Position numbers and translations under genes: made by a program. The notes below the pieces were generated by a model. That model was not told where the DNA came from, did not search any database, and was given only the letters and a program-made list of their open reading frames with translations. Source: Alphaproteobacteria bacterium (GTDB taxonomy: Bacteria > Pseudomonadota > Alphaproteobacteria > UBA7887). Taken from it: 64,000 bases of DNA. Location: assembly GCA_030739735.1 (NCBI GenBank), contig JASLYQ010000001.1, positions 159,633 through 223,632 on the forward strand, read 5' to 3'. Positions 3,201 to 60,169 of the stretch are shown piece after piece (position 1 is the first letter of the stretch; every line of letters starts with the position of its first letter).

Positions 3201-4043
3201 TCAGGTGCCCTTTGTCGCCGGCTTTCTGGTCTCGAGAAAATCGTCGAACTCGGCCTGCGTCTTAGCCGCATTAGCTTTTATCTGCCGCGCCACGTCCTCA
3301 GTCTGAATCATCGCCGCCTGCCAAGTGGCGATGTGGTTTAGGCCGTCATCGATGCTGTGGTCACGGGCATAATTCAGCATTTGCTTGGTCCCGGTAATGG
3401 CCAACGGCGACTTGGCCGCGATATCTGCGCCCATCTCCATCGCCGCGGCGAGTAGCACCTCGGCATCGTCGTGAACCGAATTCACCAGGCCCACCGCGTG
3501 CGCCTCCTCGGCCGACAGTGGCCGGCCCGTATAGGCCAACTCGCGCACCAAGCCGGCGGGCATCAGATGGGGCAGACGCTGCAGAGTGCCTACATCCGCA
3601 GCCATCCCGATATTGATCTCCTGGATGCGGAAATAGGCATCCGCCGAGCACAGCCGAATATCGCAGGCCGAGATGAGATCTACGCCGCCGCCGATGCAGG
3701 CGCCCTGTACGGCAGCGATGACCGGAATGCGGCAACGGTCGATCACGGAAAAGCTCTTCTGCATGTCGAGCACGCTGCGCCGCAGCCGCTCGCCGCGCCG
3801 ACCGGCATCGCCTTCGCAGTCAGCGAAGGATTCCATGACACTGAGTTCGAGGCCGGCAGTGAAGTGGCGGCCGGTCGAGGAGATGATAGCGGCGCGCACC
3901 GCCGCATCGCTGTCGACGGCGTCGAACACCGCAACCATGTCACGCCAGAACGGCAGAATCATGGTGTTGAGCGCCTCCGGCCGGTTGAGTCGGATATGCG
4001 CGACGTGATCTTTGACCGTAAGGGTCAAGGTCTCATAGGGCAT
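3201..4043 (-). CDS. enoyl-CoA hydratase/isomerase (crotonase) family protein
   Basis: 280 aa. Crotonase-fold hallmarks (HIRLNRPEALNTM…, oxyanion-hole region AAVQGACIGGGVDL). Confidence 0.85.
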   Translation of the reverse strand: MPYETLTLTVKDHVAHIRLNRPEALNTMILPFWRDMVAVFDAVDSDAAVRAAIISSTGRHFTAGLELSVMESFADCEGDAGRRGERLRRSVLDMQKSFSVIDRCRIPVIAAVQGACIGGGVDLISACDIRLCSADAYFRIQEINIGMAADVGTLQRLPHLMPAGLVRELAYTGRPLSAEEAHAVGLVNSVHDDAEVLLAAAMEMGADIAAKSPLAITGTKQMLNYARDHSIDDGLNHIATWQAAMIQTEDVARQIKANAAKTQAEFDDFLETRKPATKGT

Positions 4044-4162
4044 GCTGGCTCGACCTTTTGGGACATACGACAGCGCTAATCATATCGCACGGCGCCAGAT
4101 ATTGAAGTCAACGAAGTCGAGGCAGTTGAGGCAGCGTCAGCGAGAGCTTGAGTCCGGGCGCC

Positions 4163-4666
4163 TCAAGCACGGTCGATCTCGTCGGAGGACAGCTTCACCC
4201 GCACCTCGCGCCCGAGCAGATGCAGCATGACAACCACGCGGTCCGTGTCACCCTCGACCTCCAGAATGCCTTCGAGAGCGCGCATCGGCCCGGATTCGAT
4301 GCGCACCTTGTCACCCGACTTCAGGCCACGGGCAAGCGTGTAGTGACCATCCTCATCGGCGCGCGCGCGCAGCGCATCAATCACCGCATCGGCTAGCGCC
4401 AACGGGCCGTCGCCGCTACCTACCAGATCGGCGACGCCATAAGTCGAGAGCACGGGGCGCCACTGCTCGCCATCGAGGTCCAGGACGACAAAGAGATAGC
4501 GCGGAAACAAAGGCCGCAGCACCTGTTCACTACGTCGGGCACGACGACGCTGCTTGCGGTAGAGCGGCAGCCAGGCCTCGAAGCCCTGGCGCTTAAGGTT
4601 CTCCAGCGCCCGCGCCTCCGCATGGAGCCTAGTGTGGACGGCATACCAGCGCTTTCCGGCGCTCAT
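4163..4666 (-). CDS. NusG-family specialised transcription antiterminator (RfaH/UpxY/LoaP-like paralog)
   Basis: 167 aa. NGN-domain start WYAVHTRLHAE. C-terminal KOW-like segment KSGDKVRIESGPMRALEGILEVEG. ATGA stop/start overlap with the upstream DUF218 gene. Confidence 0.75.
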   Translation of the reverse strand: MSAGKRWYAVHTRLHAEARALENLKRQGFEAWLPLYRKQRRRARRSEQVLRPLFPRYLFVVLDLDGEQWRPVLSTYGVADLVGSGDGPLALADAVIDALRARADEDGHYTLARGLKSGDKVRIESGPMRALEGILEVEGDTDRVVVMLHLLGREVRVKLSSDEIDRA

Positions 4667-5448
4667 GAACCAGGCTCCAAATCAGCCATGACGATGTGGC
4701 CGTTGATCAGGTACCAAAGAATGCCAAGATATTCGTGCAGGGCGGCACGGCTACCGGCCAGGCCTGCGGCACTGGGCAGATAGGGCGCTAGCACACCGAG
4801 TGGCTGTCGAGGTGATGCGTGCGGGGCCGGCGCATGGGCACTCACCGTGAGCCCCACATGGCGCAGGTTCGCCGCCATGCGCGCAACATGAACGGGCGAG
4901 GTGACGAGCACGATGTGCGTGCCGCCGAGACGCTCGGCGATGGTACGCGCTGCCGCTGCCGTCTCGGCGCTATTGCGCGCGCCAGATTCGAGCAGAACTG
5001 TCGGGTCATCAGGCCGGTCGGAACCGATCATGCCAAGTTGGCGAGCGACGCTGACAGCCTCCGTTTCCGCCTCGCCGAGTGGGCTGCCGCCGATCAGCAC
5101 CAGGGGCAGGCTGGTGCGCTCGGCCAGCGCCTGGCCGGCCACTGCGCGGCGGATGCTGGCCGACGACGGCCACCAGCCACCTTGCGAATCGGCGAAAATA
5201 CCGGCCGTCGGCACCACGATGGCCACGGCATCGCCTGGCGTTGCGACATCAAAGGACGGCGCCGCCTCGCCGAGCTGGGTCTCGAGCCAAGTCGCGACTA
5301 GTGGCACGCTGAGGCCGAGAAAGGCGAGCGTCGCACCTCCAATCAGCACCAGGCTCCAGCCGCGGTGCAACCACAGAACAAGGCCCAATAGCAGCATTGC
5401 CAGAATCGGCATAGGCAGGGTGAGCAGGGTCTCAGTCACCTCTCGCAT
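4663..5448 (-). CDS. DUF218 (ElyC/YdcF/SanA-family) membrane-anchored protein
   Basis: The six-frame ORF runs to 5865, but the credible start is the Met at 5448 (MREVTETLLTLPMPILAMLLLGLVLW, an N-terminal TM helix). The DUF218 core is present (LVLIGGSPLGEAETEAVSVARQLG…LLESGARNSAETAAAART…VLVTSPVHVARM). Confidence 0.7.
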   Translation of the reverse strand: MREVTETLLTLPMPILAMLLLGLVLWLHRGWSLVLIGGATLAFLGLSVPLVATWLETQLGEAAPSFDVATPGDAVAIVVPTAGIFADSQGGWWPSSASIRRAVAGQALAERTSLPLVLIGGSPLGEAETEAVSVARQLGMIGSDRPDDPTVLLESGARNSAETAAAARTIAERLGGTHIVLVTSPVHVARMAANLRHVGLTVSAHAPAPHASPRQPLGVLAPYLPSAAGLAGSRAALHEYLGILWYLINGHIVMADLEPGS

Positions 5449-5550
5449 TTCGAGCTTTTTCTCCCTCGGCGCCGCGTTGCAAGCTGCGGCCCGCTCCCAT
5501 ATGGTACAAGGGTCCTGACCACTCCCTGGTTCGCCCACACACTGCCAAGT

Positions 5551-7029
5551 ATGACTCAGCCGAGTGAAAATGCCGAGCCCAGCGGCAAACGCGCGAGCCT
5601 TAGCGCGCGCAAGCGGAAGGCGCTCGCCCTGGCCGAGGCGGTGGCCAGCGAGCGCACCGGTTGGATAGCCCGCAATCGGTATTTCTACGACGACCACTAC
5701 CGCTATCTGCGCTTCCTCGTGCCGGAAAGCTCGCACGTGCTCGACCTCAGCTGCGGTATTGGTGATTGCTTGGCGGCGCTGGCGCCGGAGCGCGGCGTCG
5801 GGTTCGACCTCAGCCCGGCCATGATCGAAGTAGCGCGCAAAGAGAACCCGCAGTTCGAGTATCATGTCGGCGACATCGAGTGCACTGCAGCCATCGCCGA
5901 CCTCGAAGGCCCGTTCGACGCCATTATCTTGTCAGACACCATTGGCAACCTCGAAGACATTGAGATCACCATTGAGGCCCTGCACGCGTTATGTGCCCCC
6001 GACACACGACTGATTCTCTGCTATTACTCGCGCGCTTGGCAGCCGCTACTGCGTCTGACCGAAAAGCTTGGCGAAAAGCAACAACAATTACCGCAGAATT
6101 GGCTCAGCACCGAAGATATCAGCGCCCTGTTGCAGCTTGCTGATTTCGAGGTGATCAAGCGCGAATGGCGGCAATTGCTGCCCAAGCGCTGGCTCGGTTT
6201 GGGTTATCTGATCAACCGTACTTTCGGCACGCTGCCTGTGCTGCGGCGCTTCTCACTGCGAAACTATATCGTCGCCCGCCCGCTTCCCAAGCGCACCATG
6301 CCTGCAGAGCTGCCCTCGGCGACCGTGCTCATCCCCTGCCGTAACGAGCGCGCCAATATTGCCGCCGCCATCAAGCGCATGCCACACTTCGCGCCGGAGC
6401 AGGAGATCCTCTACGTCGAAGGGCACTCCAGTGACGGCACCTGGGAGGAGATCCAGCGTGTCATCGAGACTTATCCTGACTGGACCATCCGCGCTGTGCA
6501 GCAGGACGGTAAGGGCAAGGGCGATGCCGTGCGCAAGGGATTCGACGTGGCCGCGGGTGAGGTGCTAATGATCCTCGATGCTGACCTTACCGTACCACCC
6601 GAGACGCTACCCAAGTTTTACCGCGCGCTGGTCGCCGGCAAGGGCGAATTTGTTAACGGCACGCGGCTCGTCTATCCGCTCGAGAAAGAGGCCATGCGGC
6701 GGCTCAACTTGATCGCTAACCGCACCTTCTCGCTGCTCTTCTCATGGCTGCTCAACCAACGCCTGACCGACACCCTGTGCGGCACCAAGGTGTTGACCAA
6801 AGCCCATTATCGCAAGATCGCCGCCGGGCGCGCCTATTTTGGCGAGTTCGATCCGTTCGGTGATTTTGATCTCCTCTTTGGCGCCGCACGCCTGAACCTA
6901 AAGCTGGTAGAGATTCCCATCCGCTATCAGGCGCGAACCTATGGCGAGACCCAGATCTCGCGCTTCGCTGACGGCTGGCTGCTGCTGCGCATGGTCATCT
7001 TCGCCTGGCGCAAACTGAAAGCGCTTTGA
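5551..7029 (+). CDS. bifunctional class I SAM-dependent methyltransferase / family-2 glycosyltransferase (polyprenyl-phosphate sugar synthase-like) fusion protein
   Basis: 492 aa. The N-terminal approx 240 aa carry SAM-MTase motif I (VLDLSCGIGDCLAAL). The C-terminal approx 240 aa are GT2/DPM1-like (TVLIPCRNERANI…, DAD motif in MILDADLTVPP, GTKVL). Confidence 0.8.
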   Translation: MTQPSENAEPSGKRASLSARKRKALALAEAVASERTGWIARNRYFYDDHYRYLRFLVPESSHVLDLSCGIGDCLAALAPERGVGFDLSPAMIEVARKENPQFEYHVGDIECTAAIADLEGPFDAIILSDTIGNLEDIEITIEALHALCAPDTRLILCYYSRAWQPLLRLTEKLGEKQQQLPQNWLSTEDISALLQLADFEVIKREWRQLLPKRWLGLGYLINRTFGTLPVLRRFSLRNYIVARPLPKRTMPAELPSATVLIPCRNERANIAAAIKRMPHFAPEQEILYVEGHSSDGTWEEIQRVIETYPDWTIRAVQQDGKGKGDAVRKGFDVAAGEVLMILDADLTVPPETLPKFYRALVAGKGEFVNGTRLVYPLEKEAMRRLNLIANRTFSLLFSWLLNQRLTDTLCGTKVLTKAHYRKIAAGRAYFGEFDPFGDFDLLFGAARLNLKLVEIPIRYQARTYGETQISRFADGWLLLRMVIFAWRKLKAL

Positions 7030-8018
7030 GCGCCCTGTTAGCGGGGCTCGTTGCTGCCGCGCTGGCCTGGGCCACGACCGGGGCGCTGCGAAAGCTGCTC
7101 ACGGCCAAAGAGATCCTCGATCACCCCAATGCGCGCTCGAGCCACGCGCACCCTATACCGCGCGGCGGTGGCATCGCCGTGATGGCGGTAATTTTGTTCG
7201 GCTGGCTGGCTCTCGGCCTCGCCGAGATCACGCCCTTGCGCCTGATTTGGCCGCTGCTCGGGCTGAGCTTCGGCTTGGCGCTGGTCTCCTGGGCCGACGA
7301 TTTGCGCGGGCTCTCGCCGCTACTGCGCTTTACGGCCCAGATCGCGGCCGTTTCCATTGCACTCTCGACCGTGCCACTCGGTCCACATTTCCCCGGACCC
7401 TTGCCGCTTTGGCTGGCGATCGGCAGCGCCGCACTGGCCTGGCTCTGGTTCGTCAATTTGTTCAATTTCATGGACGGTATCGACACCATCGCTGGTGTCG
7501 AGACTGTGACGATCGCAGGCGGAACCGCGGTAGTCGCAGCCGCCCTCGGCCTGCTCGACGGCAGCTCCTGGCTAGCCGCAGTCGTTGCCGGTGCGGCGCT
7601 CGGCTTCTTGGTCTGGAACCGGCCGCCGGCGCGCATCTTCCTCGGCGATGTCGGCAGCGTGCCACTCGGCTTTCTGCTCGCCTGGCTGCTCCTGTCGCTG
7701 GCCGCCCATGGTGCCTGGGCAGCAGCCTTGATTCTACCCGCCTATTTCCTTACAGATGCCACACTAACCTTGCTACGCCGCGCTTTGCGTGGCGAAAAAC
7801 CATGGCATGCGCATCGCGAGCATTTCTATCAGCAGGCGGTGCAGAAAGGTGCCGGCCACGGCCGCGTTAGCGCCAGTGTGGCGGTGGCTAATCTGGCGCT
7901 ATTCGCCTGCGCGTTGGCCAGCCTGCACGGCCTCAGCGCCGCTATCGCAGCGCTTGCCGCATCGCTAGTGATCGTGCTGGTTTTGTTGTGGTACCTTCGC
8001 CGCGGTGCCACCTGGTAG
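7026..8018 (+). CDS. WecA/MraY-family polyprenyl-phosphate N-acetylhexosamine-1-phosphate transferase (GT4/PNPT)
   Basis: 330-aa polytopic membrane protein with the diagnostic NLFNFMDGIDTIAG motif and the PNARSSHAHPIPRGGG loop. TTG start overlaps the upstream TGA (TTGA). Confidence 0.8.
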   Translation: MSALLAGLVAAALAWATTGALRKLLTAKEILDHPNARSSHAHPIPRGGGIAVMAVILFGWLALGLAEITPLRLIWPLLGLSFGLALVSWADDLRGLSPLLRFTAQIAAVSIALSTVPLGPHFPGPLPLWLAIGSAALAWLWFVNLFNFMDGIDTIAGVETVTIAGGTAVVAAALGLLDGSSWLAAVVAGAALGFLVWNRPPARIFLGDVGSVPLGFLLAWLLLSLAAHGAWAAALILPAYFLTDATLTLLRRALRGEKPWHAHREHFYQQAVQKGAGHGRVSASVAVANLALFACALASLHGLSAAIAALAASLVIVLVLLWYLRRGATW

Positions 8019-9659
<1,641 letters not shown>

Positions 9660-9765
9660 TGCCGATGACGAGCAAGATTCGCCACCGCTGTGGAGCACAA
9701 GGAGGATATCGGACCCGAGAGCTTGCGAATGTTCAGCGCCCGCAAGCCGGCATAGGACGCAATCC

Positions 9766-10596
9766 ATGAACGGCGTTATCTCTTATTACGACGAGCACCC
9801 GATCAACGAGGTACAGATCCGCACGGCGCTGGCGCGCGAGGGCAAGGCGATGCAGAACCTTGTGCCCGAAGACCTCTACGACCACGACCAGGACCATTAC
9901 GGCGGCATCGACGCCACCCGCCGTCTAGCCCTGGTCTGTGGCATTCAGGTGAGCGATCACGTGCTCGACATCTGCAGCGGTATGGGCGGGCCGGCACGCC
10001 TGATCGCGCACGAGTGGGACTGTCAGGTCACAGGCATCGACCTCAACCCCAACCGCACACCCTCAGCTGCCCGGCTGACCGCGCTTGTGGGCCTCGAGGC
10101 GCGAGTGCGCTTCGTGCGCGGTGATGCCACAAGCTTGCCGTTCGGTGCGGAAAGCTTCGACCGGGCGATCGGCCAGGAGGCCTTTCTCCATATCGCCGAC
10201 ACGCGGGCGCTGTTCCGCGAGTGTTTCCGCGTACTGCGGCCGGGCGGGCGGCTTGCCTTCACCAACTGGATCGCGCTCGGCGCTCTGTCGGACGAGGAAC
10301 GGAAAGACCTTGCCAAGGGCATAGCCTTTCGCGGTGTTCATCCTCTGGCAAAATACCGCGGCTTCGTCACCGACGCCGGGTTCGACCCGGTCGAGGCAGA
10401 GGATGTGTCTGCCCATTGGCGCTGCATTCTGCGCGCCCGACTAGAGATGTATCGCAGCATGGAGGCGGATACCGTGGCCCAGTTTGGCGCCGAGCGCCAC
10501 CGCGCCTACATCACCGGTTACGAAATCTTCATCAGTCGCATCGAAGGCAAGAAGCTCGGCGGAGCGCGCTTTGTCGCCACCAAACCGCTAGCATAG
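9766..10596 (+). CDS. class I SAM-dependent methyltransferase (type 11)
   Basis: Motif I ([16 protein letters not shown]), post-I acidic residue (GIDLNP) and motif III (LRPGGRLAF). 276 aa. Confidence 0.8.
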
Positions 10597-28715: not shown

Positions 28716-29783
28716 ATGATTCCCGGTATGGGCATCAGACTGGCGGGCAGAATCTCGGAGGCTAGTATTCTAGTGATCGAGAACGATGCCACCCAGATGC
28801 AGCTGGTGACAGCCATGCTGAAGAGCATCGGCGCTGGCCGTGTCGCCTGCGCGCAATCGGCCGAGGACGCCTTCGCGGTCATCGGCTATCCAGAAGCTGG
28901 GCCGAAGACGCACCCGGTGGATCTAATCCTGATGGATGTGGTCCTAGCTGACAGCAACGGCATTGATCTGTACCAACGACTTGCCGCATCGCCGGCGATG
29001 GCGCTGGTGCCAATCATCATCATCACTTCCCTCTCCGATGCCGAGACACTCAAGGACGCCTTCGATGCGGGAGCCGCCGACTTCATTACCAAGCCGATCG
29101 CCGATTACGAGCTTGAGGCACGCGTCAGTGCGGCTCTCGGCTGGCGGCGTTCAATGCTGATCCGCATAGAGCGGGAGAATGAGTTGGAAAAGCGGGAGAA
29201 GGAACTGGTCAAGGTTACCGAGGTCCTGCAGCAGACAAACGAGCGGTTACAACTCTTGTCGACACGCGACGCACTGACGGGTATCGCCAACCGCCGCGGG
29301 CTGAACGATTTTCTCGAGATGGAATGGCGCCGCGCCGCGCGCGAGGAAGGCAGCCTATCCCTGTTGATGATCGACGTAGACGATTTCAAGAACTTCAACG
29401 ACACCCATGGGCATCAGGCCGGCGACGAATGCCTCTGGATGGTCGCCCTCTGTCTTAAGGACTGCCTCCATCGCGGCGCCGATATGGTTGGCCGCTATGG
29501 CGGCGAAGAGTTTCTTGCCGTGCTCCCCGATACACCGATCGAGGGCGCGATGAATGTGGCCGAGGTCATGCGGCAAAGCGTGGAAGAGAAAGGTATTGCC
29601 CACACCGAGTCCCGCACGGGCGCAGGCGTGGTTACGGTAAGCGTCGGTGTCGCCTGCGGTAAGCCGAAAATGGCAATGGTCTCTGATAGTTTGCTAACCG
29701 CCGCCGACACCGCACTCTACGAGGCCAAAAGCCAGGGCCGAAACCGTGTCGTCACCGCGCCAGATTTGGTGACGGCGGCTTAG
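28716..29783 (+). CDS. response regulator receiver – GGDEF diguanylate cyclase (PleD/WspR-like)
   Basis: Start at MIPGMG (RBS GGAGG). REC domain (ILVIENDA…LILMDVVLADSNG…FITKP), coiled linker, GGDEF domain with an intact GGEEF. Confidence 0.85.
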   Translation: MIPGMGIRLAGRISEASILVIENDATQMQLVTAMLKSIGAGRVACAQSAEDAFAVIGYPEAGPKTHPVDLILMDVVLADSNGIDLYQRLAASPAMALVPIIIITSLSDAETLKDAFDAGAADFITKPIADYELEARVSAALGWRRSMLIRIERENELEKREKELVKVTEVLQQTNERLQLLSTRDALTGIANRRGLNDFLEMEWRRAAREEGSLSLLMIDVDDFKNFNDTHGHQAGDECLWMVALCLKDCLHRGADMVGRYGGEEFLAVLPDTPIEGAMNVAEVMRQSVEEKGIAHTESRTGAGVVTVSVGVACGKPKMAMVSDSLLTAADTALYEAKSQGRNRVVTAPDLVTAA

Positions 29784-31510
29784 GCTTTCTTGCGATAGAC
29801 GGCACCCTCGCTGACCACATAATCGACCCGGTCGTCAGCTAGCGCCTGCGCGCATTCTTCTGGCGCATTGATAATCGGCTCCTCGTGAGCGTTAAAGCTG
29901 GTATTGATCAGCACCGGGATGCCACTGGCCTGCTTGTAAGCAGCGAGGATATCGTAATATAGCGGGTTGGGCTCGCGCTCGATAATCTGTGGCCGAGCGG
30001 TGCCGTCAACATGGACGACCGCCGGGATACGCGCACGCCATTCGGAGCGCACCGCGCAGGTAATGGTCATGAAACGGGCGGCATAGGAGAGCCCGTCACC
30101 AAGGACGAAGATCTCGGCCGCATCATCGGCCGCAACGACGGGTGCGAAAGGCATGAATTCCGTGCGCCCGAGCCTGGCGTTGAGAACGTCGTTGATGCGA
30201 CTATCGGTTGGCGCTGCAAGGATGCTGCGCGAGCCGAGCGCCCGCGGCCCGTATTCGCCACCGTGGCTGAAAATAGCGACCGCAGCGCCCTCTGTCAGCA
30301 ACTTCACCGCGGTCTCGACCGGCGCCCCAGGCAGAGCTTCGAGGCGGGCATCGCCGGCAAGAACGGTATCGGCCTTGCTACCCCAATCCCTCCCCAGATA
30401 GAGCGTATCGAGACGCCAGCGGCTCGCAAGCCAGCGCTCGAAACCGTCGCGGGCGAGCAAGAAATCGAGCACGCCGCCAGCCGCCAAACCAGCATCGCTC
30501 ATCGCGGGATAGACGAAAATCTCATCGACGTCCGTTTCCTCGGCAAGGCGTTGATTGAGTCGCACATTGCCGAAGACGCCGCCAGCCAGGCCCAGATTGC
30601 GTACCGGATGGCGTGTCAGCAAGCGTCGCACCGCGGTCAATACGGTCTCTTCCAGCAGAGTCTGGACGGAAGCAGCAACATCGGCAGGCTTGGCTCCATC
30701 TGCCAAGGCGAAGATATGCCTACGCATCGCCGTGTAGTTCTCGAAGTCGCTATTAATACAGCCCTTATTATCTACAGAAAAATGTGTAGCTAATGACTGG
30801 TACAGCGTCGGTTCACCGAACGCGGCGAGGCCCGTTAACTTCCCCTCGTGACGGTTCATACGATAGCCGAGCGCCTGCGTAGCATAGCCATAGGCCAGAC
30901 CCAGACTGTCAATACGCTGCGGCTCGAGAAGCCCCGCATCACCACCATGCAAGGTCTCGATGGCACCATCACGAAAGACGCGATGGCTGTATTGTACGTT
31001 GTCGCCACCGCCGTCGGCGGTGTAGAGCAGCGCCTCATCCCAGTCCGTATGGAACAGGGTAGGCAAGGCATGGGCGCGATGGTGATTGTAGAAAGTGACC
31101 GGAATGTCAGCGCGAAAGCCCTGCTCGCTCCTGAAGCGCTCGACGTTGAAGATTCCTGCTGCGTCCGTGCACCTGGCGCGGATCAGCTCGCGCTCCATGC
31201 TCTTCTGTTTTTGCTTGCCGAGCGCCTGGCGAACTTTGCCTTCAACCCAGCGCCCGCCGGAGAAATGGTTGAAGTAGTGCCAGGGAAAGACGGCCCGGCC
31301 GAGTGCCACCGCATCAACATCAACACGGCCCGCACCGACTACATCAAGGCATGCGTCGATTGCCTCGCCGGGGATGCGGCCACCGTCGATCTTGCGCCGG
31401 GTCAGGCGTTCTAGCTGGATGGCCGCACGCATGGCATAGTCCTCGAAGAGAATCGCCACGGCATCGTGGTGGCCGGAATGAACGCCGAGAATGAGCATGT
31501 GTGATAGCAC
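29780..31510 (-). CDS. NodU/CmcH-family carbamoyltransferase
   Basis: 576 aa. ILGVHSGHHDAVA and YNHHRAHA (Kae1/YgjD-like N-domain). C-terminal NTSFNAHEEPII. Confidence 0.8.
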   Translation of the reverse strand: MLSHMLILGVHSGHHDAVAILFEDYAMRAAIQLERLTRRKIDGGRIPGEAIDACLDVVGAGRVDVDAVALGRAVFPWHYFNHFSGGRWVEGKVRQALGKQKQKSMERELIRARCTDAAGIFNVERFRSEQGFRADIPVTFYNHHRAHALPTLFHTDWDEALLYTADGGGDNVQYSHRVFRDGAIETLHGGDAGLLEPQRIDSLGLAYGYATQALGYRMNRHEGKLTGLAAFGEPTLYQSLATHFSVDNKGCINSDFENYTAMRRHIFALADGAKPADVAASVQTLLEETVLTAVRRLLTRHPVRNLGLAGGVFGNVRLNQRLAEETDVDEIFVYPAMSDAGLAAGGVLDFLLARDGFERWLASRWRLDTLYLGRDWGSKADTVLAGDARLEALPGAPVETAVKLLTEGAAVAIFSHGGEYGPRALGSRSILAAPTDSRINDVLNARLGRTEFMPFAPVVAADDAAEIFVLGDGLSYAARFMTITCAVRSEWRARIPAVVHVDGTARPQIIEREPNPLYYDILAAYKQASGIPVLINTSFNAHEEPIINAPEECAQALADDRVDYVVSEGAVYRKKA

Positions 31511-47946: not shown

Positions 47947-49719
47947 TCAGTTGAAGTGTAGCGCTGCCGGGGGTAGGTGGTCGGCGTCAAGGCAGCACCA
48001 ATCGGCGACTTCAATGCCAAGGTCGGCGAACAGTGGACGCAGAATGGCAACGCGGCGAAAGGGGGCATTGCCGAGGGCGTCGCTGTCACCGGCGCGGCTG
48101 CGCGCGGCAAGCCCCTCTATCGCGGCCTTGAGCGTGGCGAAGTCGTCGGCCATGGCGACAGTCGCGGCGCCCTCGCCAGTGATGTTCCAGGACAGACTGA
48201 CGGAAAGCCAGGCATCGCCCGCGGCGGAGCGCGCGCCAAGGCCACTCACAGTGTCGCGCAGGGCAAAGGTCGCCCGCCAGTTTTCGCCGTCGCGGCGCAA
48301 ATTTCTGTCCTCGACGGCCAGGCCGGCAGGCGCCGCGGAATCGGAGCGCAGCCGCGCAACGCTGCCACTGCCATCGCCGCGCAAACGCCCGCGCAGCACC
48401 AGGCTACCGTCAGCAAAAGGCTCGCAAGTGAAGCCGAACTCGTCGCCGTCGGCGCGCACCGCGCACGGTGTCACCACCTCGCGGACCACTGTGGCGCCGT
48501 CGCGCAGGCGCGCATCGAGGCGCTGGATATCCACCAGGGCCATGAAGTTACCCAGCCCGGCAATGGTCTGGCTCACCCAGAAGGGCTCGACAGACGGCAT
48601 GCCGGCAAAGGACGCCGGCACTCCCCAAACGCTCTCTGGCCGCCGCTCATAGAGCGGCTCGTAGGTATCGTCGAATTGCAGCAGAGCGGGCGTGACCAGC
48701 GCCCTGAGCTCAGCGAGATCCATCTCGCCGTCCACGCGGCCAGTGCCGTAGCCGGCTTCTGCAAATGGGTCGTAGTCCGCGAGATCTGCGCTAGCGAGGG
48801 CGGCCCCTGCAGGGAAGCGTGCCTGCCAGCCCGCCACGACAGAGGCGGCGAAACGGTCGCGCGCGCCGTCGCCCGCCTCGGCAAGCTGGTAACCGCTGGT
48901 TAGACGGTAACGCAGCGCCGCCACCAGACCGTCGCGCCGGCACCCCACCGCATCCTCCGAGGCCTCGCACGCCTGTTGCCAAGCCGCCTGATAGGCGACG
49001 AAATAATTGGCGCGATTTGTCGACTCGTCAAAGGATTCGGGAATGTCGAATGGCACCGTGGCATCGATACCGTAGAAACGCTCGCTGGTATGGCGCAGCA
49101 ACGCCGCCACCTTAATGTTCGTATTGCTCTCGGCCCAGGGGCGGTCGGCATAGATCAGCGCATGGTTATGGTGGCAGGCGAGGCAGAGCCCGCGGTCAAC
49201 ATAGCCCACCGTGGGGTTACCGCCTTCACGGTAATCGCTGATGACCTGATAATCGAAGCGCCCGGCGGCCTCATTGTAGCTGATCGCCTCGACCGAGTTG
49301 GTGCGCGGCTGATAGCCGAGATAGAGCCTGTCCTTCATCATCAGACCCGATTCCCCCGCGGTGGGCGCCGGCTCTGTATCGACGGCACCGACCGCCCGCG
49401 GGTAGCGGAAGAAGTCCGGCTCAGCCTCGTGGCGGTGCAGAGAGCGGCCGATCGGGTGCAGTACCCGCTTTATGGGCTCCCGGAATCCGGGTCCAAGCCG
49501 CGCGGCGATGCGCTCGATTAACGCCTCAAAGGGATAGGGTGCGACGATCTGCCAATCGCCATCGACCTCCTCGGCCAGTACGAAGTCGAGCAGCGAGCGC
49601 CCGACCGGCGGCAGGTCCGGTCCGCGATTAGCTTCCGAGGTTAGCGCTTCGGGCTCGGCCAGTACCGGCGCCACAAAGGTTAGTACCAAGAGTATTGGGA
49701 AAAGTTGTCGCATCACCAC
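47947..49719 (-). CDS. exported hypothetical protein with a single CXXCH haem-c-type motif
   Basis: 590 aa. N-terminal signal peptide MVMRQLFPILLVLTFVAPVLAEP. CLACHH at about residue 186. No other family recognised. Confidence 0.6.
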   Translation of the reverse strand: MVMRQLFPILLVLTFVAPVLAEPEALTSEANRGPDLPPVGRSLLDFVLAEEVDGDWQIVAPYPFEALIERIAARLGPGFREPIKRVLHPIGRSLHRHEAEPDFFRYPRAVGAVDTEPAPTAGESGLMMKDRLYLGYQPRTNSVEAISYNEAAGRFDYQVISDYREGGNPTVGYVDRGLCLACHHNHALIYADRPWAESNTNIKVAALLRHTSERFYGIDATVPFDIPESFDESTNRANYFVAYQAAWQQACEASEDAVGCRRDGLVAALRYRLTSGYQLAEAGDGARDRFAASVVAGWQARFPAGAALASADLADYDPFAEAGYGTGRVDGEMDLAELRALVTPALLQFDDTYEPLYERRPESVWGVPASFAGMPSVEPFWVSQTIAGLGNFMALVDIQRLDARLRDGATVVREVVTPCAVRADGDEFGFTCEPFADGSLVLRGRLRGDGSGSVARLRSDSAAPAGLAVEDRNLRRDGENWRATFALRDTVSGLGARSAAGDAWLSVSLSWNITGEGAATVAMADDFATLKAAIEGLAARSRAGDSDALGNAPFRRVAILRPLFADLGIEVADWCCLDADHLPPAALHFN

Positions 49720-50008: not shown

Positions 50009-50095
50009 GCCCCTGTGGTGGAATTGGTAGACACGACAGACTCAAAATCTGTTGTCCGCAAGGACGTGTCGGTTCGAGTCCGACTGGGGGCACCA
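50009..50095 (+). tRNA. tRNA-Leu (anticodon CAA)
   Basis: 87 nt. Acceptor stem GCCCCTG/TGGGGGC, D-arm GTGGAATTGGTAGAC, anticodon loop CT-CAA-AA, long variable arm (type II), T-arm GGTTCGAGTCC, encoded CCA. Confidence 0.85.
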
Positions 50096-53907: not shown

Positions 53908-54450
53908 TCAGTTAGGCTCTGGCCAGTATAGCAGGAAGCCGTCACGGTTCGGCATCTTCACACCAGGCAGGCTATCGGCATCCATGACCTGGCCGTCCTT
54001 GATGATGCCGTTCAAGCTCAACAGGTATGCCGTGACCGCATAGACATCGTCATTGCTGAGCGACATCGGCCGATCATAGGGCATGGCACGGCGCACGTAG
54101 TCAAAAATAGTGGTGGCATAGGGCCAGTAGCTGGCTATGGTTTTCACCGGCTTGTCGCCGGCTAGAGAATCGATGCCACCGGCAAGTGCATCAGCAAATT
54201 TCTCGCCGCCCCTGGCGCCCCCGCCATGGCAGCGCCTGCAGTGCTGATGGTAGACGTGAGCGCCGCGTTCGGCATCACCCCTACCGGGCGGCAAGGTGGC
54301 ACCGTCGGGCGCGATGCTGATATCCCATTTAGCGACCTCTTCCGCCGATACCGGCTCGCCCAGCTCTGGACCGGGCTCAGCGAGAACGGGACTGGCAACA
54401 AGCAGGACCACGGCCAAGGTCGAAAGCGTGCAACGATCAAATATAGACAT
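53908..54450 (-). CDS. monohaem cytochrome c, sulfite dehydrogenase partner subunit (SorB/SoxD-like)
   Basis: Start at MSIFDRCTLSTLAVVLLVASPVLA (signal peptide), overlapping the sorA-like stop by 14 nt. Single CRRCH haem site. Confidence 0.7.
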   Translation of the reverse strand: MSIFDRCTLSTLAVVLLVASPVLAEPGPELGEPVSAEEVAKWDISIAPDGATLPPGRGDAERGAHVYHQHCRRCHGGGARGGEKFADALAGGIDSLAGDKPVKTIASYWPYATTIFDYVRRAMPYDRPMSLSNDDVYAVTAYLLSLNGIIKDGQVMDADSLPGVKMPNRDGFLLYWPEPN

Positions 54451-55735
54451 TGCTGACCTCCCCGTTGCTTGCAATGCCCCAGGTTTGGATGGCGTTGCAG
54501 TGGTAGAGATGGCCTGCCGCATACTGCTCGGACCACACTTCGCGTCGTAGCTGGGTGTTACCTTTCTCGTCGGTCGCGCGGCTTTGCACGACAGCTGGCG
54601 CGCCGTCCCAACTCCAGGGCAGGCGGAAACGCGTCAGCGCCATCGGCTGCACCGGCCCGTCCAGCGCCGCCTCCGCCCAGCTCTTGCCGCCGTCGGCCGA
54701 GACCTCGACGCGGGCGATTCGGCCGTGGCCTGACCAAGCGAGGCCCGAGATCTGATAGAGCCCCGCGCCGCGCATCGTCAGACCCGTTGCCGGGCGTGTG
54801 ATGGTTGATTTCACATCCATGCGGAAAGTGAACTGGCGCGCCATGCCGTCGGGCATCAGGTCGGAATATTTCGAGGTCTCGTCCTTTGTGTGAGTTGGTC
54901 CCTCGGTGACCTTGATGCGGCGCAGCCACTTGACCGACATATTACCTTCGTAGCCCGGCAACACGAGGCGCATGGGGTAGCCGTTCTCGGGGCGTAGGCG
55001 CTCGCCGTTCTGATACAAAGCCACGATGGCGTCGTCGAGTGCCTTTTCCATGGGAATGCTACGGCTCATGGCGGCGGAATCAGCCCCCTCGGCAAGAATC
55101 CACTTGCCGCGCGGATCCAATCCAGCTTCATCGAGTAGGATCGAGAGCGGGATACCCGTCCACTCGGCACCGGAGATGAGACCGTGGATCATACCTACCG
55201 GCACCTGCATGGGCTCGGAGAACAGGTTGCTGTTGAAGAAACTATTGCCAGCGCACTCGATAAATAGAAGTCGGCTAGCCATCGGATAGCGCAGCAGCGC
55301 CTCTATGTCGAACTTAAGCGGCTGCACCACCAGACCATGGATCAAAAACTCATGCCTCTCCGAATCGATGATGGGTCGGCCGTTGTGGCTGCGCTCGAAA
55401 TGCAGACCGTTGGGTGTGATGGTGCCTTCAAGGTTCTGCAGTGGCGTCATGCCGACACCAGCGCCGGGCGCCAGATCGCCATAGGGCTGAAGCACGGTGC
55501 GAGCTGTCTCCCGTTCGGCGCGAGCAGGATCACCGTAGGGCCGAAACGTGATGCCCGGCACGGTCATCCAGCTCGGCGCTTCATCGCCGATGGATTCCGC
55601 GGCTACAGCCGCACCGGGCAGGGCCGCCGCAGCCACCGCACTGCCAGCGAGAAAGGCGCGCCGGTGCAGCAGACCACCGCTCGCGACTGGCTCGCCGAGC
55701 GCCTCGGCGGCGGGCACAGTGTTCTTCTTTGACAT
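54437..55735 (-). CDS. Tat-exported molybdopterin oxidoreductase of the sulfite-oxidase family (SorA/SoxC-like sulfite dehydrogenase catalytic subunit)
   Basis: 432 aa. Twin-arginine signal HRRAFLAGSAVAAAALPGAAVA. Moco domain (ECAGNS…). C-terminal Mo-co dimerisation domain. Strong RBS GAAGGAGGAG. Confidence 0.8.
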   Translation of the reverse strand: MSKKNTVPAAEALGEPVASGGLLHRRAFLAGSAVAAAALPGAAVAAESIGDEAPSWMTVPGITFRPYGDPARAERETARTVLQPYGDLAPGAGVGMTPLQNLEGTITPNGLHFERSHNGRPIIDSERHEFLIHGLVVQPLKFDIEALLRYPMASRLLFIECAGNSFFNSNLFSEPMQVPVGMIHGLISGAEWTGIPLSILLDEAGLDPRGKWILAEGADSAAMSRSIPMEKALDDAIVALYQNGERLRPENGYPMRLVLPGYEGNMSVKWLRRIKVTEGPTHTKDETSKYSDLMPDGMARQFTFRMDVKSTITRPATGLTMRGAGLYQISGLAWSGHGRIARVEVSADGGKSWAEAALDGPVQPMALTRFRLPWSWDGAPAVVQSRATDEKGNTQLRREVWSEQYAAGHLYHCNAIQTWGIASNGEVSNVYI

Positions 55736-55749
55736 CGGTTCTCCTCCTT

Positions 55750-57837: not shown

Positions 57838-57922
57838 AAGGATCCCCTACGTACCTGTCGCCCGCAATGGCAGTGGCCGTTGCATAGCAAAGATGGGTGG
57901 GCACGCAAAGCGCCGTTTTCCC

Positions 57923-59959: not shown

Positions 59960-60169
59960 GGGGCCCGGGACGGATACGGCTTTGCTGTGCCCTTGTCGAG
60001 AGTTAAGCCGGTGCAAGGATCGGCTGAGCGAGAATCCACAGGCTCAGGACCGAGTATGCGACCATCAGCAGCAGCAGTGGCAATTGCGCGAGATTGCGCG
60101 CGCCCCGAGGTGGGAAGAACGCCGGGTTGTCACGCCTAGAACCTAGGACCCGGCCAACCGATATCGTCG

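What the first reader, a model, noticed from the sequence alone, without database searches (positions are those of the whole stretch)
4163..8018. Specialised NusG/RfaH-like antiterminator + DUF218(ElyC) pair divergent from a lipid-carrier glycosylation operon (MTase::GT2 fusion + WecA/MraY-type transferase)
The minus-strand genes for a DUF218 (ElyC/YdcF) protein and a NusG paralog overlap (ATGA) and are followed by crotonase, SDR and PAS-like genes. A 102-nt divergent promoter region separates them from a plus-strand pair whose stop and start overlap (TTGA).

That pair is a SAM-methyltransferase fused to a GT2 polyprenyl-phosphate-sugar-synthase-like domain, and a WecA/MraY-family phospho-sugar transferase with the NLFNFMDGIDT motif.

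NusG paralogs typically license expression of long envelope-polysaccharide or secondary-metabolite operons. ElyC-family proteins and WecA both act on undecaprenyl-phosphate-linked intermediates. The arrangement looks like a small dedicated module for a (methylated?) lipid-linked glycan. I do not recognise a described system with this composition.
Basis: partly seen in the sequence, partly recalled or inferred. Interest (0 to 1): 0.6.

Follow-up and report, generated by a model that had tools for sequence, protein, structure and literature searches.

The report
RfaH gene beside a shrunken glycan locus
An ordinary RfaH-type transcription elongation factor sits next to the two-gene remnant of a surface-polysaccharide gene cluster that is much longer in related bacteria. 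The DNA signal that recruits this factor in those relatives is absent from this stretch.

Summary
Coordinates, the ATGA and TTGA overlaps, the 102-nt divergent spacer, all domain calls and the NLFNFMDGIDT motif are correct.

The NusG paralog is an alphaproteobacterial RfaH, and NCBI already names it so. It is not part of a self-contained new module. In related uncultured Rhodospirillales-like genomes the same rfaH gene faces a 6-9 gene glycan operon. That operon runs from MT::GT2, often preceded by a UPF0104 flippase-like gene, through methyltransferases, a GT-C and a carbamoyltransferase to a WbpL-like GT4, a WbpM/PglF-like dehydratase and purH. The window keeps only MT::GT2, GT4 and purH.

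Half of 80 related rfaH loci carry one E. coli-type ops element, consensus CACCC-N4-5-(G/T)GCGGTAGC(G/A)TG, always on the rfaH strand. It usually lies just after rfaH or before a partner wHTH gene. It heads a different polysaccharide operon, not the MT::GT2 operon.

The window has no such element and no wHTH gene.

So synteny with glycan genes is real and conserved, but direct licensing of this two-gene operon is unsupported. RfaH genes next to envelope-polysaccharide genes are already described. The rfaH pairing with DUF218 is a minor trait of this lineage. Interest is low to moderate.

The parts
4163..4666 (-). rfaH-like gene (167 aa): NGN domain plus a KOW-type C-terminal domain
   Evidence: Pfam NusG 4e-22. 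NCBIfam scores are RfaH 120.5 bits, UpxY 81, NusG 63 and LoaP 59. The best PDB sequence match is E. coli RfaH. The AF2 model has mean pLDDT 87.6 and a beta-barrel C-terminal domain. NCBI names the identical protein 'transcriptional activator RfaH'.
4663..5448 (-). DUF218 (ElyC/YdcF/SanA superfamily) membrane protein. Its stop codon overlaps the rfaH start codon (ATGA).
   Evidence: Pfam DUF218 2.9e-16. The ElyC equivalog scores 43.9 bits against a cutoff of 205. DUF218 lies directly 5' of rfaH only in the window, L007-L011, L013, L088 and L104-L106.
5449..5550 (.). Divergent intergenic region. It holds a sigma-70-like TTGCAA (5477-5482), a 17-nt spacer and TATGGT (5500-5505) facing the + strand operon. 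It has no ops element.
   Evidence: The promoter-like block is conserved in L007 and L008. The best ops PWM score is 0.7 bits against 15.4-21.7 for real sites. The promoter reading is my inference from the sequence. The scan tool lists no promoter-like site there.
5551..7029 (+). Fusion of a class I SAM methyltransferase with a GT2 domain of the polyprenyl-phosphate-sugar-synthase type
   Evidence: Pfam and NCBIfam hits, with AglJ TIGR04182 at 1e-29. DPMS and ArnC are the best PDB sequence hits. The AF2 model has pTM 0.83, and the GT domain is nearest ArnC, DPMS and GtrB. The fusion is widespread, at 62-65% identity even in Sulfuricella.
7026..8018 (+). GT4 polyprenyl-phosphate phospho-sugar transferase (WecA/WbpL/MraY superfamily). 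Its TTG start overlaps the MT::GT2 stop.
   Evidence: Pfam Glycos_transf_4 9e-31. WecA TIGR02380 scores 68.8 bits against a cutoff of 326. MraY chains are the only PDB sequence hits. In relatives it is followed by a Polysacc_synt_2 (PglF/WbpM-like) gene and purH.
8055..9659 (+). purH, the conserved right-hand boundary of the locus, probably co-transcribed with the two GT genes
   Evidence: AICARFT_IMPCHas and MGS domains. There is a 36-nt gap, a GGAGAG ribosome-binding site and no terminator-like site. purH follows GT4 or PglF in L007, L008, L013, L019, L027, L075 and L088.
4044..4162 (-). Spacer between rfaH and the crotonase gene. It has no ops element.
   Evidence: The best ops PWM score is 2.9 bits. 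In L008, L009 and L088 an amino-acid permease gene occupies this position.
29780..31510 (-). Orphan NodU/CmcH-type carbamoyltransferase, possibly a displaced member of the ancestral glycan operon
   Evidence: It is 63% identical over 582 aa to the carbamoyltransferase inside the MT::GT2...GT4 operon of L014. Pfam Carbam_trans_N and Carbam_trans_C match. Its neighbours are unrelated genes: a GGDEF response regulator and a panE-like gene.

Best explanation
The region is the reduced core of a surface-polysaccharide (LPS/O-antigen-type) locus that is conserved in this lineage of uncultured Rhodospirillales-like Alphaproteobacteria.

On one side, a DUF218 membrane protein and an RfaH orthologue are translated from one mRNA. 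On the other side, a sigma-70-like promoter drives a short operon of MT::GT2, GT4 and probably purH.

The GT4 enzyme primes undecaprenyl phosphate with a phospho-HexNAc, in the manner of WbpL and WecA. The MT::GT2 enzyme is an ArnC/DPMS/GtrB-like polyprenyl-phosphate-sugar synthase with a fused methyltransferase. It most likely supplies a lipid-linked, possibly methylated, sugar to a periplasmic GT-C transferase. That transferase lies in the operon in relatives but is not encoded here.

RfaH in this clade is an ops-dependent elongation factor. It should load onto RNA polymerase paused at CACCC-N4-5-(G/T)GCGGTAGC(G/A)TG. In relatives that element heads a wHTH gene and/or another long polysaccharide operon, not the MT::GT2 operon. 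In this genome both the element and the wHTH gene are missing from the window. So RfaH most likely acts in trans on a locus elsewhere, and the two GT genes are expressed independently of it.

Shown: the domains, the synteny, the gene loss relative to relatives, the ops motif in relatives and its absence here. Inferred: the enzyme substrates, the promoter, action in trans.
For: Conserved synteny with a longer operon in relatives:
- L014: LPG_synthase_TM, MT::GT2, methyltransferase, PMT_2 (GT-C), carbamoyltransferase, GT4.
- L088: DUF218-rfaH facing epimerase, Abhydrolase_7, MT::GT2, FkbM methyltransferase, PMT_2, GT4, Polysacc_synt_2 and purH.
- The full table of loci is, and L104-L106.

The LPS character of the locus shows in several relatives. 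A Wzy_C O-antigen ligase gene, a KpsF-like gene, or both precede rfaH in L019, L032 and L034. WbpB- and WbpD-like genes flank it in Bradyrhizobium L040.

The two-gene version is intact in L007 and L008. MT::GT2 is 87-89% identical, GT4 83% and purH 87-88%.

The ops evidence:
- One motif copy occurs in 40 of 80 loci, and all 40 lie on the rfaH strand.
- There are 50 unique sites scoring 15.4-21.7 bits.
- The exact 22-mer is also found in 35%-GC contigs, each time next to the wHTH gene.
- The best score anywhere in the window is 12.9 bits, inside a coding region. None is found in L001-L008.

The window RfaH has the residue signature RRNRQRYR at the E. coli positions 10, 16, 20, 23, 24, 48, 73 and 138. 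The commonest signature among ops-linked relatives is RRNRQRFR.

A wHTH-bearing polysaccharide contig from the same samples has tetranucleotide correlation 0.984-0.985 with the window. The window's own pieces give 0.969-0.986.

Published work places RfaH clusters next to envelope-biogenesis genes and one cluster next to an HTH regulator (PMC7593976).
Against: - Only about 74 kb of this organism was searchable, so an ops site elsewhere is assumed rather than shown.
- The candidate second locus (L107-L112) also lacks ops. It is linked to the window organism only by sample of origin and nucleotide composition. L008, a separate organism whose RfaH is 80% identical, scores 0.984 by the same measure.
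- AF2 predicts a NusG-like beta-barrel C-terminal domain. E48 of the E. coli E48-R138 autoinhibition salt bridge is replaced by arginine. This fits the 'monomorphic', locally acting RfaH class of PMC13015549 better than a trans-acting autoinhibited one.
- One relative, L029, has an ops-like core GGCGGTAGTTGG in the leader of its MT::GT2 operon.
- No substrate of either glycosyltransferase was tested.
- The MT::GT2 protein lacks the C-terminal transmembrane pair of ArnC and GtrB.
Confidence: 0.55

Rival explanations
1. The RfaH paralog is a dedicated local antiterminator for the divergently transcribed MT::GT2-GT4 operon, and the four genes form one regulatory module.
For: - The divergent rfaH | MT::GT2 arrangement recurs in at least 15 related loci.
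- L029 carries GGCGGTAGTTGG about 95 nt upstream of its MT::GT2 gene.
- AF2 gives a beta-barrel KOW domain. RfaH homologues predicted in that state tend to sit in or next to their target operons (PMC13015549).
Against: - There is no ops-like site in the leader, where the best score is 0.7 bits.
- The leader is not conserved beyond the promoter block, even in L008.
- The operon is only 2.5 kb, or 4.1 kb with purH, so it has little need for processivity control.
- In relatives the strictly conserved ops lies elsewhere, on the rfaH strand.
- A factor made from the opposite strand cannot be loaded co-translationally onto the polymerase transcribing the GT operon.
Confidence: 0.2
2. The RfaH gene is a relic. 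After the locus was cut down and ops and the wHTH gene were lost or moved, the gene persists with no target. Its adjacency to the GT genes is purely historical.
For: - ops and the wHTH gene are absent from the window, from L001-L006 and from the closest relatives L007 and L008.
- The candidate second locus has the wHTH gene but no ops.
- Relative to L088, L009 and L104 there has been massive gene loss.
Against: - The ORF is intact and identical across at least 71 contigs.
- It is 80-82% conserved in L007 and L008, a level similar to the neighbouring GT4 (83%) and DUF218 (77%) genes.
- It keeps the ops-contact signature of ops-linked relatives.
- Translational coupling to DUF218 is preserved.
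Confidence: 0.15
3. DUF218 and RfaH form a new functional pair. An ElyC-like sensor of lipid-carrier status would be coupled to an elongation factor, replacing the wHTH partner used by other Alphaproteobacteria.
For: - The 4-nt start/stop overlap, and the DUF218-rfaH order in the window and in L007-L011, L013, L088 and L104-L106.
- In most other loci the wHTH gene occupies exactly that upstream slot.
Against: - L009, L013, L097 and L104-L106 have both DUF218-rfaH and ops-wHTH, so DUF218 does not replace the wHTH partner.
- The pairing is confined to one sub-clade.
- No evidence of physical or regulatory interaction exists.
- The ElyC equivalog score is far below threshold.
Confidence: 0.1

Closest known systems
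E. coli RfaH and its ops element (GGCGGTAGCGTG)
   Same: - Same two-domain NGN plus KOW architecture, and the best sequence match in the PDB.
- Contact residues equivalent to R16, R23 and Q24 are kept, and K10 is replaced conservatively by arginine.
- Relatives of this protein are linked to an essentially identical ops core.
- The targets are envelope-polysaccharide operons.
   Different: - The score is below the TIGR01955 cutoff, 120.5 against 144.5 bits.
- Residues H20 and R73 are replaced by N and Y, and E48 by R.
- AF2 predicts a beta-barrel rather than an alpha-hairpin C-terminal domain.
- The clade's ops carries a conserved CACCC extension on its 5' side.
- No ops is present in this window.
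- The gene is translationally coupled to DUF218 rather than monocistronic.
RfaH sequence clusters CL2-CL8, especially CL4 'associated with an HTH regulator' (Wang et al. 2020, PMC7593976), and the 'monomorphic' RfaH homologues next to LPS operons (PMC13015549)
   Same: - An alphaproteobacterial RfaH beside glycosyltransferase and epimerase genes.
- A wHTH partner gene in most relatives.
- An AF2-predicted active-state C-terminal domain.
   Different: I could not check membership of CL4 itself, because no cluster list was consulted. The window lineage lacks the adjacent HTH gene and has DUF218 in its place.
wbpL-wbpM of the Pseudomonas aeruginosa O-antigen cluster, and wreU-wreV of Rhizobium etli (from my own knowledge, not tested here)
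   Same: In relatives, a GT4 initiating transferase of about 330 aa is followed by a Polysacc_synt_2 dehydratase of about 650 aa at the 3' end of a variable glycan cluster.
   Different: The window has lost the dehydratase gene.
Three-component periplasmic glycosylation systems (ArnC/ArnT, GtrA/GtrB/Gtr type-specific transferase, DPMS/PMT)
   Same: - The GT2 domain's closest folds are ArnC, DPMS and GtrB.
- Relatives place a GT-C (PMT_2) gene and a UPF0104 flippase-like gene in the same operon.
   Different: - An N-terminal SAM methyltransferase domain is fused on.
- The C-terminal transmembrane helices are absent.
- The GT-C and flippase-like genes are absent from the window.
ElyC / YdcF / SanA (DUF218)
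   Same: A DUF218 domain after an N-terminal hydrophobic segment, with a weak full-length alignment to the ElyC model.
   Different: The score is 43.9 bits against a cutoff of 205, and there is no PDB relative by sequence. The function is untested.

Membership tests
RfaH (NusG specialised paralog) | NGN domain | tested here: met
   Pfam PF02357 4e-22, covering residues 5-99. The NGN superposes on RfaH structures at 1.5-2.7 A rmsd.
RfaH (NusG specialised paralog) | Score above the curated RfaH equivalog threshold | tested here: not met
   TIGR01955 scores 120.5 bits against a cutoff of 144.5, and NF006534 scores 85.3 against 124. RfaH is still the best-scoring family, ahead of UpxY, NusG and LoaP. 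NCBI names the protein RfaH.
RfaH (NusG specialised paralog) | ops element on the non-template strand in the leader of a target operon | tested here: not met
   The feature is met in relatives, where 40 of 80 loci have one copy each, all on the rfaH strand. It is absent from the window, L001-L006, L007 and L008. The window maximum is 12.9 bits, in coding sequence, against 15.4-21.7 for real sites.
RfaH (NusG specialised paralog) | Residues that contact ops (E. coli K10, R16, H20, R23, Q24, R73) | tested here: inconclusive
   The window has R, R, N, R, Q and Y at these positions. Ops-linked relatives most often have R, R, N, R, Q and F. That these are the contact residues is from my knowledge of the RfaH-ops structures.
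RfaH (NusG specialised paralog) | Autoinhibited alpha-hairpin C-terminal domain (fold switch) | tested here: inconclusive
   AF2 with a 23-sequence alignment gives a beta-barrel C-terminal domain with pLDDT 76-88. Full-length fold matches are only to beta-state RfaH and to NusG. E48 is replaced by R. A prediction cannot exclude a metamorphic protein.
RfaH (NusG specialised paralog) | Coexists with a housekeeping nusG elsewhere in the genome | not testable with these tools
   Only one NusG-like gene lies in the 64 kb window.
ElyC | Score above the ElyC equivalog threshold | tested here: not met
   NF007794 scores 43.9 bits against a cutoff of 205. Only membership of the DUF218 superfamily is established (Pfam 60.1 bits against a cutoff of 27.6).
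WecA / WbpL-type polyprenyl-phosphate HexNAc-1-P transferase | Glycos_transf_4 domain with the conserved NxxNxxDGxD motif | tested here: met
   PF00953 9e-31, and NLFNFMDGIDT in the translation.
WecA / WbpL-type polyprenyl-phosphate HexNAc-1-P transferase | Score above the WecA model threshold | tested here: not met
   TIGR02380 scores 68.8 bits against a cutoff of 326. It is therefore a GT4-family enzyme, not WecA proper.
Polyprenyl-monophosphate glycosyltransferases (ArnC / DPMS / GtrB) | GT-A fold with a DXD motif, closest to the known polyprenyl-phosphate GTs | tested here: met
   The ten best GT-domain fold matches are ArnC or DPMS at E 2e-13 to 1e-11, and GtrB also matches. D343-A-D345 is invariant in 35 homologues. 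AglJ TIGR04182 scores 1e-29 but below its cutoff.
Polyprenyl-monophosphate glycosyltransferases (ArnC / DPMS / GtrB) | C-terminal membrane anchor (transmembrane helices) | tested here: not met
   The model ends in a single helix at 475-489, and the AglJ alignment stops at model position 213 of 293. No formal transmembrane predictor was run.
LPS / O-antigen gene cluster | Initiating transferase together with polymerase, ligase, flippase or ABC transporter genes in one locus | tested here: not met
   The window locus has only the initiating GT4 and MT::GT2. Among the window ORFs searched against Pfam none is a Wzx, Wzy, WaaL or GT-C protein. tblastn with relatives' PMT_2 and UPF0104 proteins finds nothing in the window. 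The ORFs at 12-24 kb and 37-44 kb were not searched against Pfam. Relatives do carry Wzy_C, KpsF-like, PglF-like and GT-C genes at the homologous locus.

The most novel reading that the evidence does not exclude
In this sub-lineage RfaH may have been uncoupled from ops and from its usual wHTH partner, and instead hard-wired by translational coupling to an ElyC-like DUF218 membrane protein. It would have a constitutively open, NusG-like C-terminal domain. It would then be an ops-independent elongation factor whose output tracks lipid-carrier or envelope status, acting on the neighbouring minimal glycan operon.
Probability: 0.08. Interest if true: 0.6.

Novelty: new member of a known kind. Interest (0 to 1): 0.3.

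Why it matters
For the window itself it matters little. The region is an already annotated RfaH gene next to two widespread, uncharacterised but recognisable glycosyltransferase genes.

The comparative by-products are more useful.
- They define an alphaproteobacterial ops consensus that is almost identical to the enterobacterial one, and is conserved from 35% to 70% G+C.
- They show its fixed relationship to rfaH and to a partner wHTH gene. The RfaH regulon of Bradyrhizobium, Nitrobacter and many uncultured Rhodospirillales can now be predicted from sequence.
- They show that the MT::GT2 fusion belongs to a recurrent cassette of a UPF0104 flippase-like protein, MT::GT2, a methyltransferase and a GT-C. 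That cassette is a sensible target for biochemical work on methylated lipid-linked sugars.

Tried and rejected
- The E. coli ops pattern with one mismatch gave 7 hits in the window against 5.5 expected, all inside ORFs.
- The extended 22-mer with up to 6 mismatches found nothing meaningful in the window or in L001-L008.
- Rfam at gathering thresholds found only a tRNA in the window. Rfam at E<=1 on three relatives with clear ops sites found no JUMPstart or other family, so Rfam does not capture this element.
- The promoter and terminator scan of 3900-9900 gave nothing above shuffled expectation.
- I tried to find the window organism's ops and wHTH locus.
  - The metagenome scan for the exact 22-mer gave 15 contigs, none from the window's samples.
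  - The wHTH homologue P0276 comes from the same samples and matches the window in tetranucleotide composition, but it is unbinned and has no ops. The link stays circumstantial.
- A first Pfam call failed because of a wrong frame.
- My simple GC3-based gene finder mis-called several genes on the wrong strand. I used it only as a guide, alongside tblastn, Pfam and public gene calls.
- Literature searches for an alphaproteobacterial ops and for a characterised MT::GT2 fusion found nothing specific.
- A glycolipid (GlcN-PG-type) role for the UPF0104-linked cassette was considered (PMC12713373). It was not pursued, because that system uses a different glycosyltransferase family and the window lacks the UPF0104 gene.

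Full report
**1. Observation.** The ORF map and translations reproduce the finding exactly.
- The rfaH-like ORF is 4163-4666(-), 167 aa.
- The DUF218 ORF is 4663-5448(-), 261 aa.
- The two share a 4-nt ATGA overlap.
- The divergent spacer 5449-5550 is 102 nt.
- MT::GT2 is 5551-7029(+), 492 aa, and GT4 is 7026-8018(+), 330 aa. They overlap at TTGA.

Independent gene callers on six public contigs that carry the identical locus give the same four gene models.

Pfam and NCBIfam confirm every domain.
- NusG NGN, 4e-22.
- DUF218, 2.9e-16.
- Methyltransf_23 plus Glycos_transf_2.
- Glycos_transf_4, 9e-31.
- Crotonase, SDR and PAS_7 on the left flank.

The NLFNFMDGIDT motif is present. It has its own GGAGAG ribosome-binding site, and no terminator-like site separates it from GT4.

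**2. What the NusG paralog is.**
- Among NCBIfam models RfaH scores best, at 120.5 bits. UpxY scores 81, NusG 63 and LoaP 59. The RfaH score is still below the equivalog cutoff of 144.5.
- E. coli RfaH is the top sequence match in the PDB.
- NCBI already names the identical protein 'transcriptional activator RfaH' in several MAGs.
- The closest named genomes are uncultured Rhodospirillaceae and Alphaproteobacteria MAGs.
- Published surveys report that 18% of rfaH genes are alphaproteobacterial. They also report that most RfaH sequence clusters sit next to envelope-biogenesis genes, and one cluster next to an HTH regulator (PMC7593976).

An AF2 model built on 23 homologues has mean pLDDT 87.6. 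It gives the C-terminal domain as a five-stranded beta-barrel, not the alpha-hairpin of autoinhibited E. coli RfaH.
- Full-length fold matches are to beta-state RfaH (8phk, 6c6s) and to NusG proteins.
- Autoinhibited RfaH entries match only the NGN domain.
- The E. coli E48 partner of the E48-R138 interdomain salt bridge is arginine here.

This resembles the 'monomorphic' class described in PMC13015549. It is only a prediction.

**3. The neighbourhood in relatives.** I fetched 80 genome loci encoding relatives of this RfaH. I then mapped window proteins, and proteins from two relatives, onto them.

In the nearer relatives (RfaH 52-65% identical) the gene again faces, divergently, an operon that contains MT::GT2 and ends in GT4. 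There the operon has three to five additional genes between the two.
- L014 reads LPG_synthase_TM (UPF0104, a predicted flippase; PMC12713373), MT::GT2, methyltransferase, PMT_2 (GT-C), carbamoyltransferase, GT4.
- L088 reads DUF218-rfaH facing epimerase, Abhydrolase_7, MT::GT2, FkbM methyltransferase, PMT_2, GT4, Polysacc_synt_2 (PglF/WbpM-like) and purH.
- L104-L106 are similar.

Overall 15 of 80 loci have MT::GT2, 24 have GT4 and 30 have one or both within 10 kb. purH is the recurrent right-hand boundary.

Other loci tie the region to LPS.
- A Wzy_C O-antigen ligase gene, a KpsF-like gene, or both precede rfaH in L019, L032 and L034.
- WbpB-like, WbpD-like and AsnB-like genes flank it in Bradyrhizobium L040.

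From my own knowledge, a GT4 gene followed by a Polysacc_synt_2 gene is the arrangement of wbpL-wbpM in Pseudomonas aeruginosa and wreU-wreV in Rhizobium etli.

The window is thus the minimal version of a variable O-antigen-like locus, and so are L007 and L008. In those two, MT::GT2, GT4 and purH are 83-89% identical to the window's and intact.

The MT::GT2 fusion itself is widespread. It is 62-65% identical even in a Sulfuricella contig, where it sits in an rml/gmd/wzx cluster with no NusG paralog within the 8 kb flanks read.

A carbamoyltransferase 63% identical to the in-operon one of L014 survives as an orphan at 29780-31510. None of the other window ORFs I searched against Pfam is a glycan-assembly gene. 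The ORFs at 12-24 kb and 37-44 kb were not searched.

**4. The ops test.** A plain search for the E. coli consensus is at chance level in the window.

Searching the relatives for the GGCGGTAG core gave a clear result. Many loci carry the complete E. coli ops GGCGGTAGCGTG, preceded by a conserved CACCC-N4-5.
- With a pattern allowing the observed variants, 40 of the 80 loci have exactly one copy, and all 40 lie on the rfaH strand.
- In most loci the element lies 40-200 nt after the rfaH stop codon and heads a co-directional polysaccharide operon. The first genes found were a Wzx-like flippase, a UDP-glucose dehydrogenase-like gene and a sulfotransferase.
- In the window's nearer relatives it lies 3.6-7.5 kb downstream of the rfaH start, directly in front of a wHTH (HTH_24) gene.
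- That wHTH gene is a near-universal partner. It sits immediately upstream of rfaH in most of L028-L086, matching the 'CL4 plus HTH' observation of PMC7593976.
- The exact 22-mer also occurs in metagenome contigs of 35% G+C, again next to the wHTH gene. The element is therefore under strong selection.
- Rfam does not detect it.

A PWM from 50 unique sites scores them at 15.4-21.7 bits.
- The best site in the window scores 12.9 bits. It is inside the panE-like ORF and has no CACCC.
- The best in 5449-5550 is 0.7 bits, and the best in 4044-4162 is 2.9 bits.
- L001-L006, which add 10 kb to the left, and L007 and L008 have no site either.

The window also has no wHTH homologue.

Only L029 has an ops-like core, GGCGGTAGTTGG, in the leader of the MT::GT2 operon itself.

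The window RfaH keeps the residue signature of its ops-linked relatives at the E. coli ops-contact positions, RRNRQ.Y against RRNRQ.F. I therefore expect it to recognise the same element somewhere else in the genome.

**5. A possible second locus.** A wHTH homologue (P0276) is 65% identical to the wHTH protein of L009. That is about as far as the window RfaH is from L009's RfaH (62%). It is abundant in the same sample series as the window contig.
- Its contigs never exceed 14 kb.
- The gene order is recR, an epimerase remnant, Abhydrolase_7, a 432-aa ORF and an aldo-keto reductase. Then come cysQ, cysNC and cysH on the opposite strand, then the wHTH gene. A convergent block of GT1, WbqC, formyltransferase, DegT and hexapeptide-transferase genes follows.
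- These are pieces that flank DUF218-rfaH in relatives but are missing from the window.
- Tetranucleotide correlation with the window is 0.984-0.985. The window's own pieces give 0.969-0.986. Most other relatives give 0.86-0.955. L008, a separate organism whose RfaH is 80% identical, also gives 0.984, and L007 gives 0.978.
- The contigs have no ops and no rfaH, and the protein is not in binned MAGs.

The link is plausible but unproven.

**6. The enzymes.** The AF2 model of MT::GT2 has pLDDT 82.9 and pTM 0.83. It shows a Rossmann methyltransferase followed by a GT-A domain.
- The GT-A domain's ten best fold matches are ArnC and DPMS, with GtrB further down. All are polyprenyl-monophosphate glycosyltransferases.
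- The DXD motif D343-A-D345 is invariant in 35 homologues.
- The transmembrane pair of ArnC and GtrB is missing. Only helix 475-489 remains.
- GT-C and UPF0104 genes occur in the same operon in relatives.

Together these favour a donor-synthase role, making a lipid-linked sugar that the fused and neighbouring methyltransferases may methylate. The window encodes no acceptor-side GT-C.

GT4 is a WecA/WbpL/MraY-superfamily enzyme, well below the WecA threshold.

DUF218 membership is solid, but ElyC identity is not, at 43.9 bits against a cutoff of 205. The DUF218-rfaH pairing is restricted to the nearest sub-clade. Several members of that sub-clade still have ops-wHTH, so DUF218 did not replace the wHTH partner.

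**7. Verdict.**
- The RfaH identity and the conserved linkage to these glycosyltransferase genes are real.
- The 'module' is a remnant of a known kind of locus.
- The recruitment signal expected for direct control of the two-gene operon is absent. In relatives it marks a different transcription unit.
- The most likely picture is that RfaH acts at ops sites outside this window, while MT::GT2, GT4 and purH run from their own promoter. A TTGCAA-17-TATGGT block at 5477-5505, conserved in L007 and L008, is my reading of that promoter.

Novelty is that of a new member of a known kind, and interest is about 0.3. The comparative findings on the alphaproteobacterial ops element and its wHTH partner are the most reusable result.

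Noticed in passing
L009:14776-14797, L013:17451, L014:13609, L029:14972, L036:10544, L069:10562 and 34 further loci; also L089-L103: An alphaproteobacterial ops element, (T)CACCC-N4-5-(G/T)GCGGTAGC(G/A)TG. One copy occurs in 40 of 80 rfaH loci, always on the rfaH strand. The exact 22-mer is conserved even in 35%-GC marine contigs. Rfam does not capture it, and I found no paper describing it.
   Followed up: yes
L040:9309-9986, L069:9333-9998, L009:14876-15487, L019:10638-11276 and most of L012-L086: A winged-helix (PF13412 HTH_24) protein of about 205-225 aa is the near-universal neighbour of this RfaH family. It lies either immediately upstream of rfaH or just downstream of the ops site. It has a conserved C-terminal domain with no Pfam match. 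The window has no copy.
   Followed up: partly
L029:9932-9943 (-): A second ops-like core, GGCGGTAGTTGG, lies about 95 nt upstream of the MT::GT2 operon in this one relative. It is the only case where that operon's leader carries an ops-like core.
   Followed up: partly
window 29780-31510 (-): An orphan NodU/CmcH-type carbamoyltransferase lies between a GGDEF response-regulator gene and a panE-like gene. It is 63% identical to the carbamoyltransferase inside the glycan operon of relatives, so it may be a displaced operon member.
   Followed up: partly
L107-L112 (for example L111:1-13929): A polysaccharide and sulfate-activation contig carries the wHTH gene but no ops or rfaH. It comes from the same samples as the window, has window-like tetranucleotide composition (r = 0.984-0.985), and never assembles beyond 14 kb in 81 data blocks. 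It may be the second, hypervariable glycan locus of this lineage. Upstream of the wHTH gene is an AT-rich stretch with the inverted repeat TGTTCAAAAAATGAACA.
   Followed up: partly
window 54437-60016 (-): Two tandem NosR/NirI-like membrane proteins (Fer4_5, one of them also with FMN_bind) sit next to a sulfite-oxidase-type molybdoenzyme. The region has an unusually strong AT skew of +0.21 to +0.23.
   Followed up: no
window 47947-49719 (-): A 590-aa ORF with no Pfam match.
   Followed up: no
L014:10492-13390, also L012, L015-L024, L029, L033, L099: Phosphonate-synthesis genes (PEP mutase fused to a nucleotidyltransferase, plus phosphonopyruvate decarboxylase) lie between rfaH and the ops-wHTH unit in many relatives. 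This suggests phosphonate-decorated glycans. The window has none of these genes.
   Followed up: no
L087:7043-12974 and L014:5256-9918: A recurrent cassette of a UPF0104 flippase-like gene, MT::GT2, a methyltransferase (with or without an FkbM methyltransferase) and a large membrane or GT-C protein. It occurs in both Alpha- and Betaproteobacteria and appears to be uncharacterised.
   Followed up: partly
window 50009-50092 (+): A single tRNA gene, the only Rfam hit at gathering threshold in the window.
   Followed up: no
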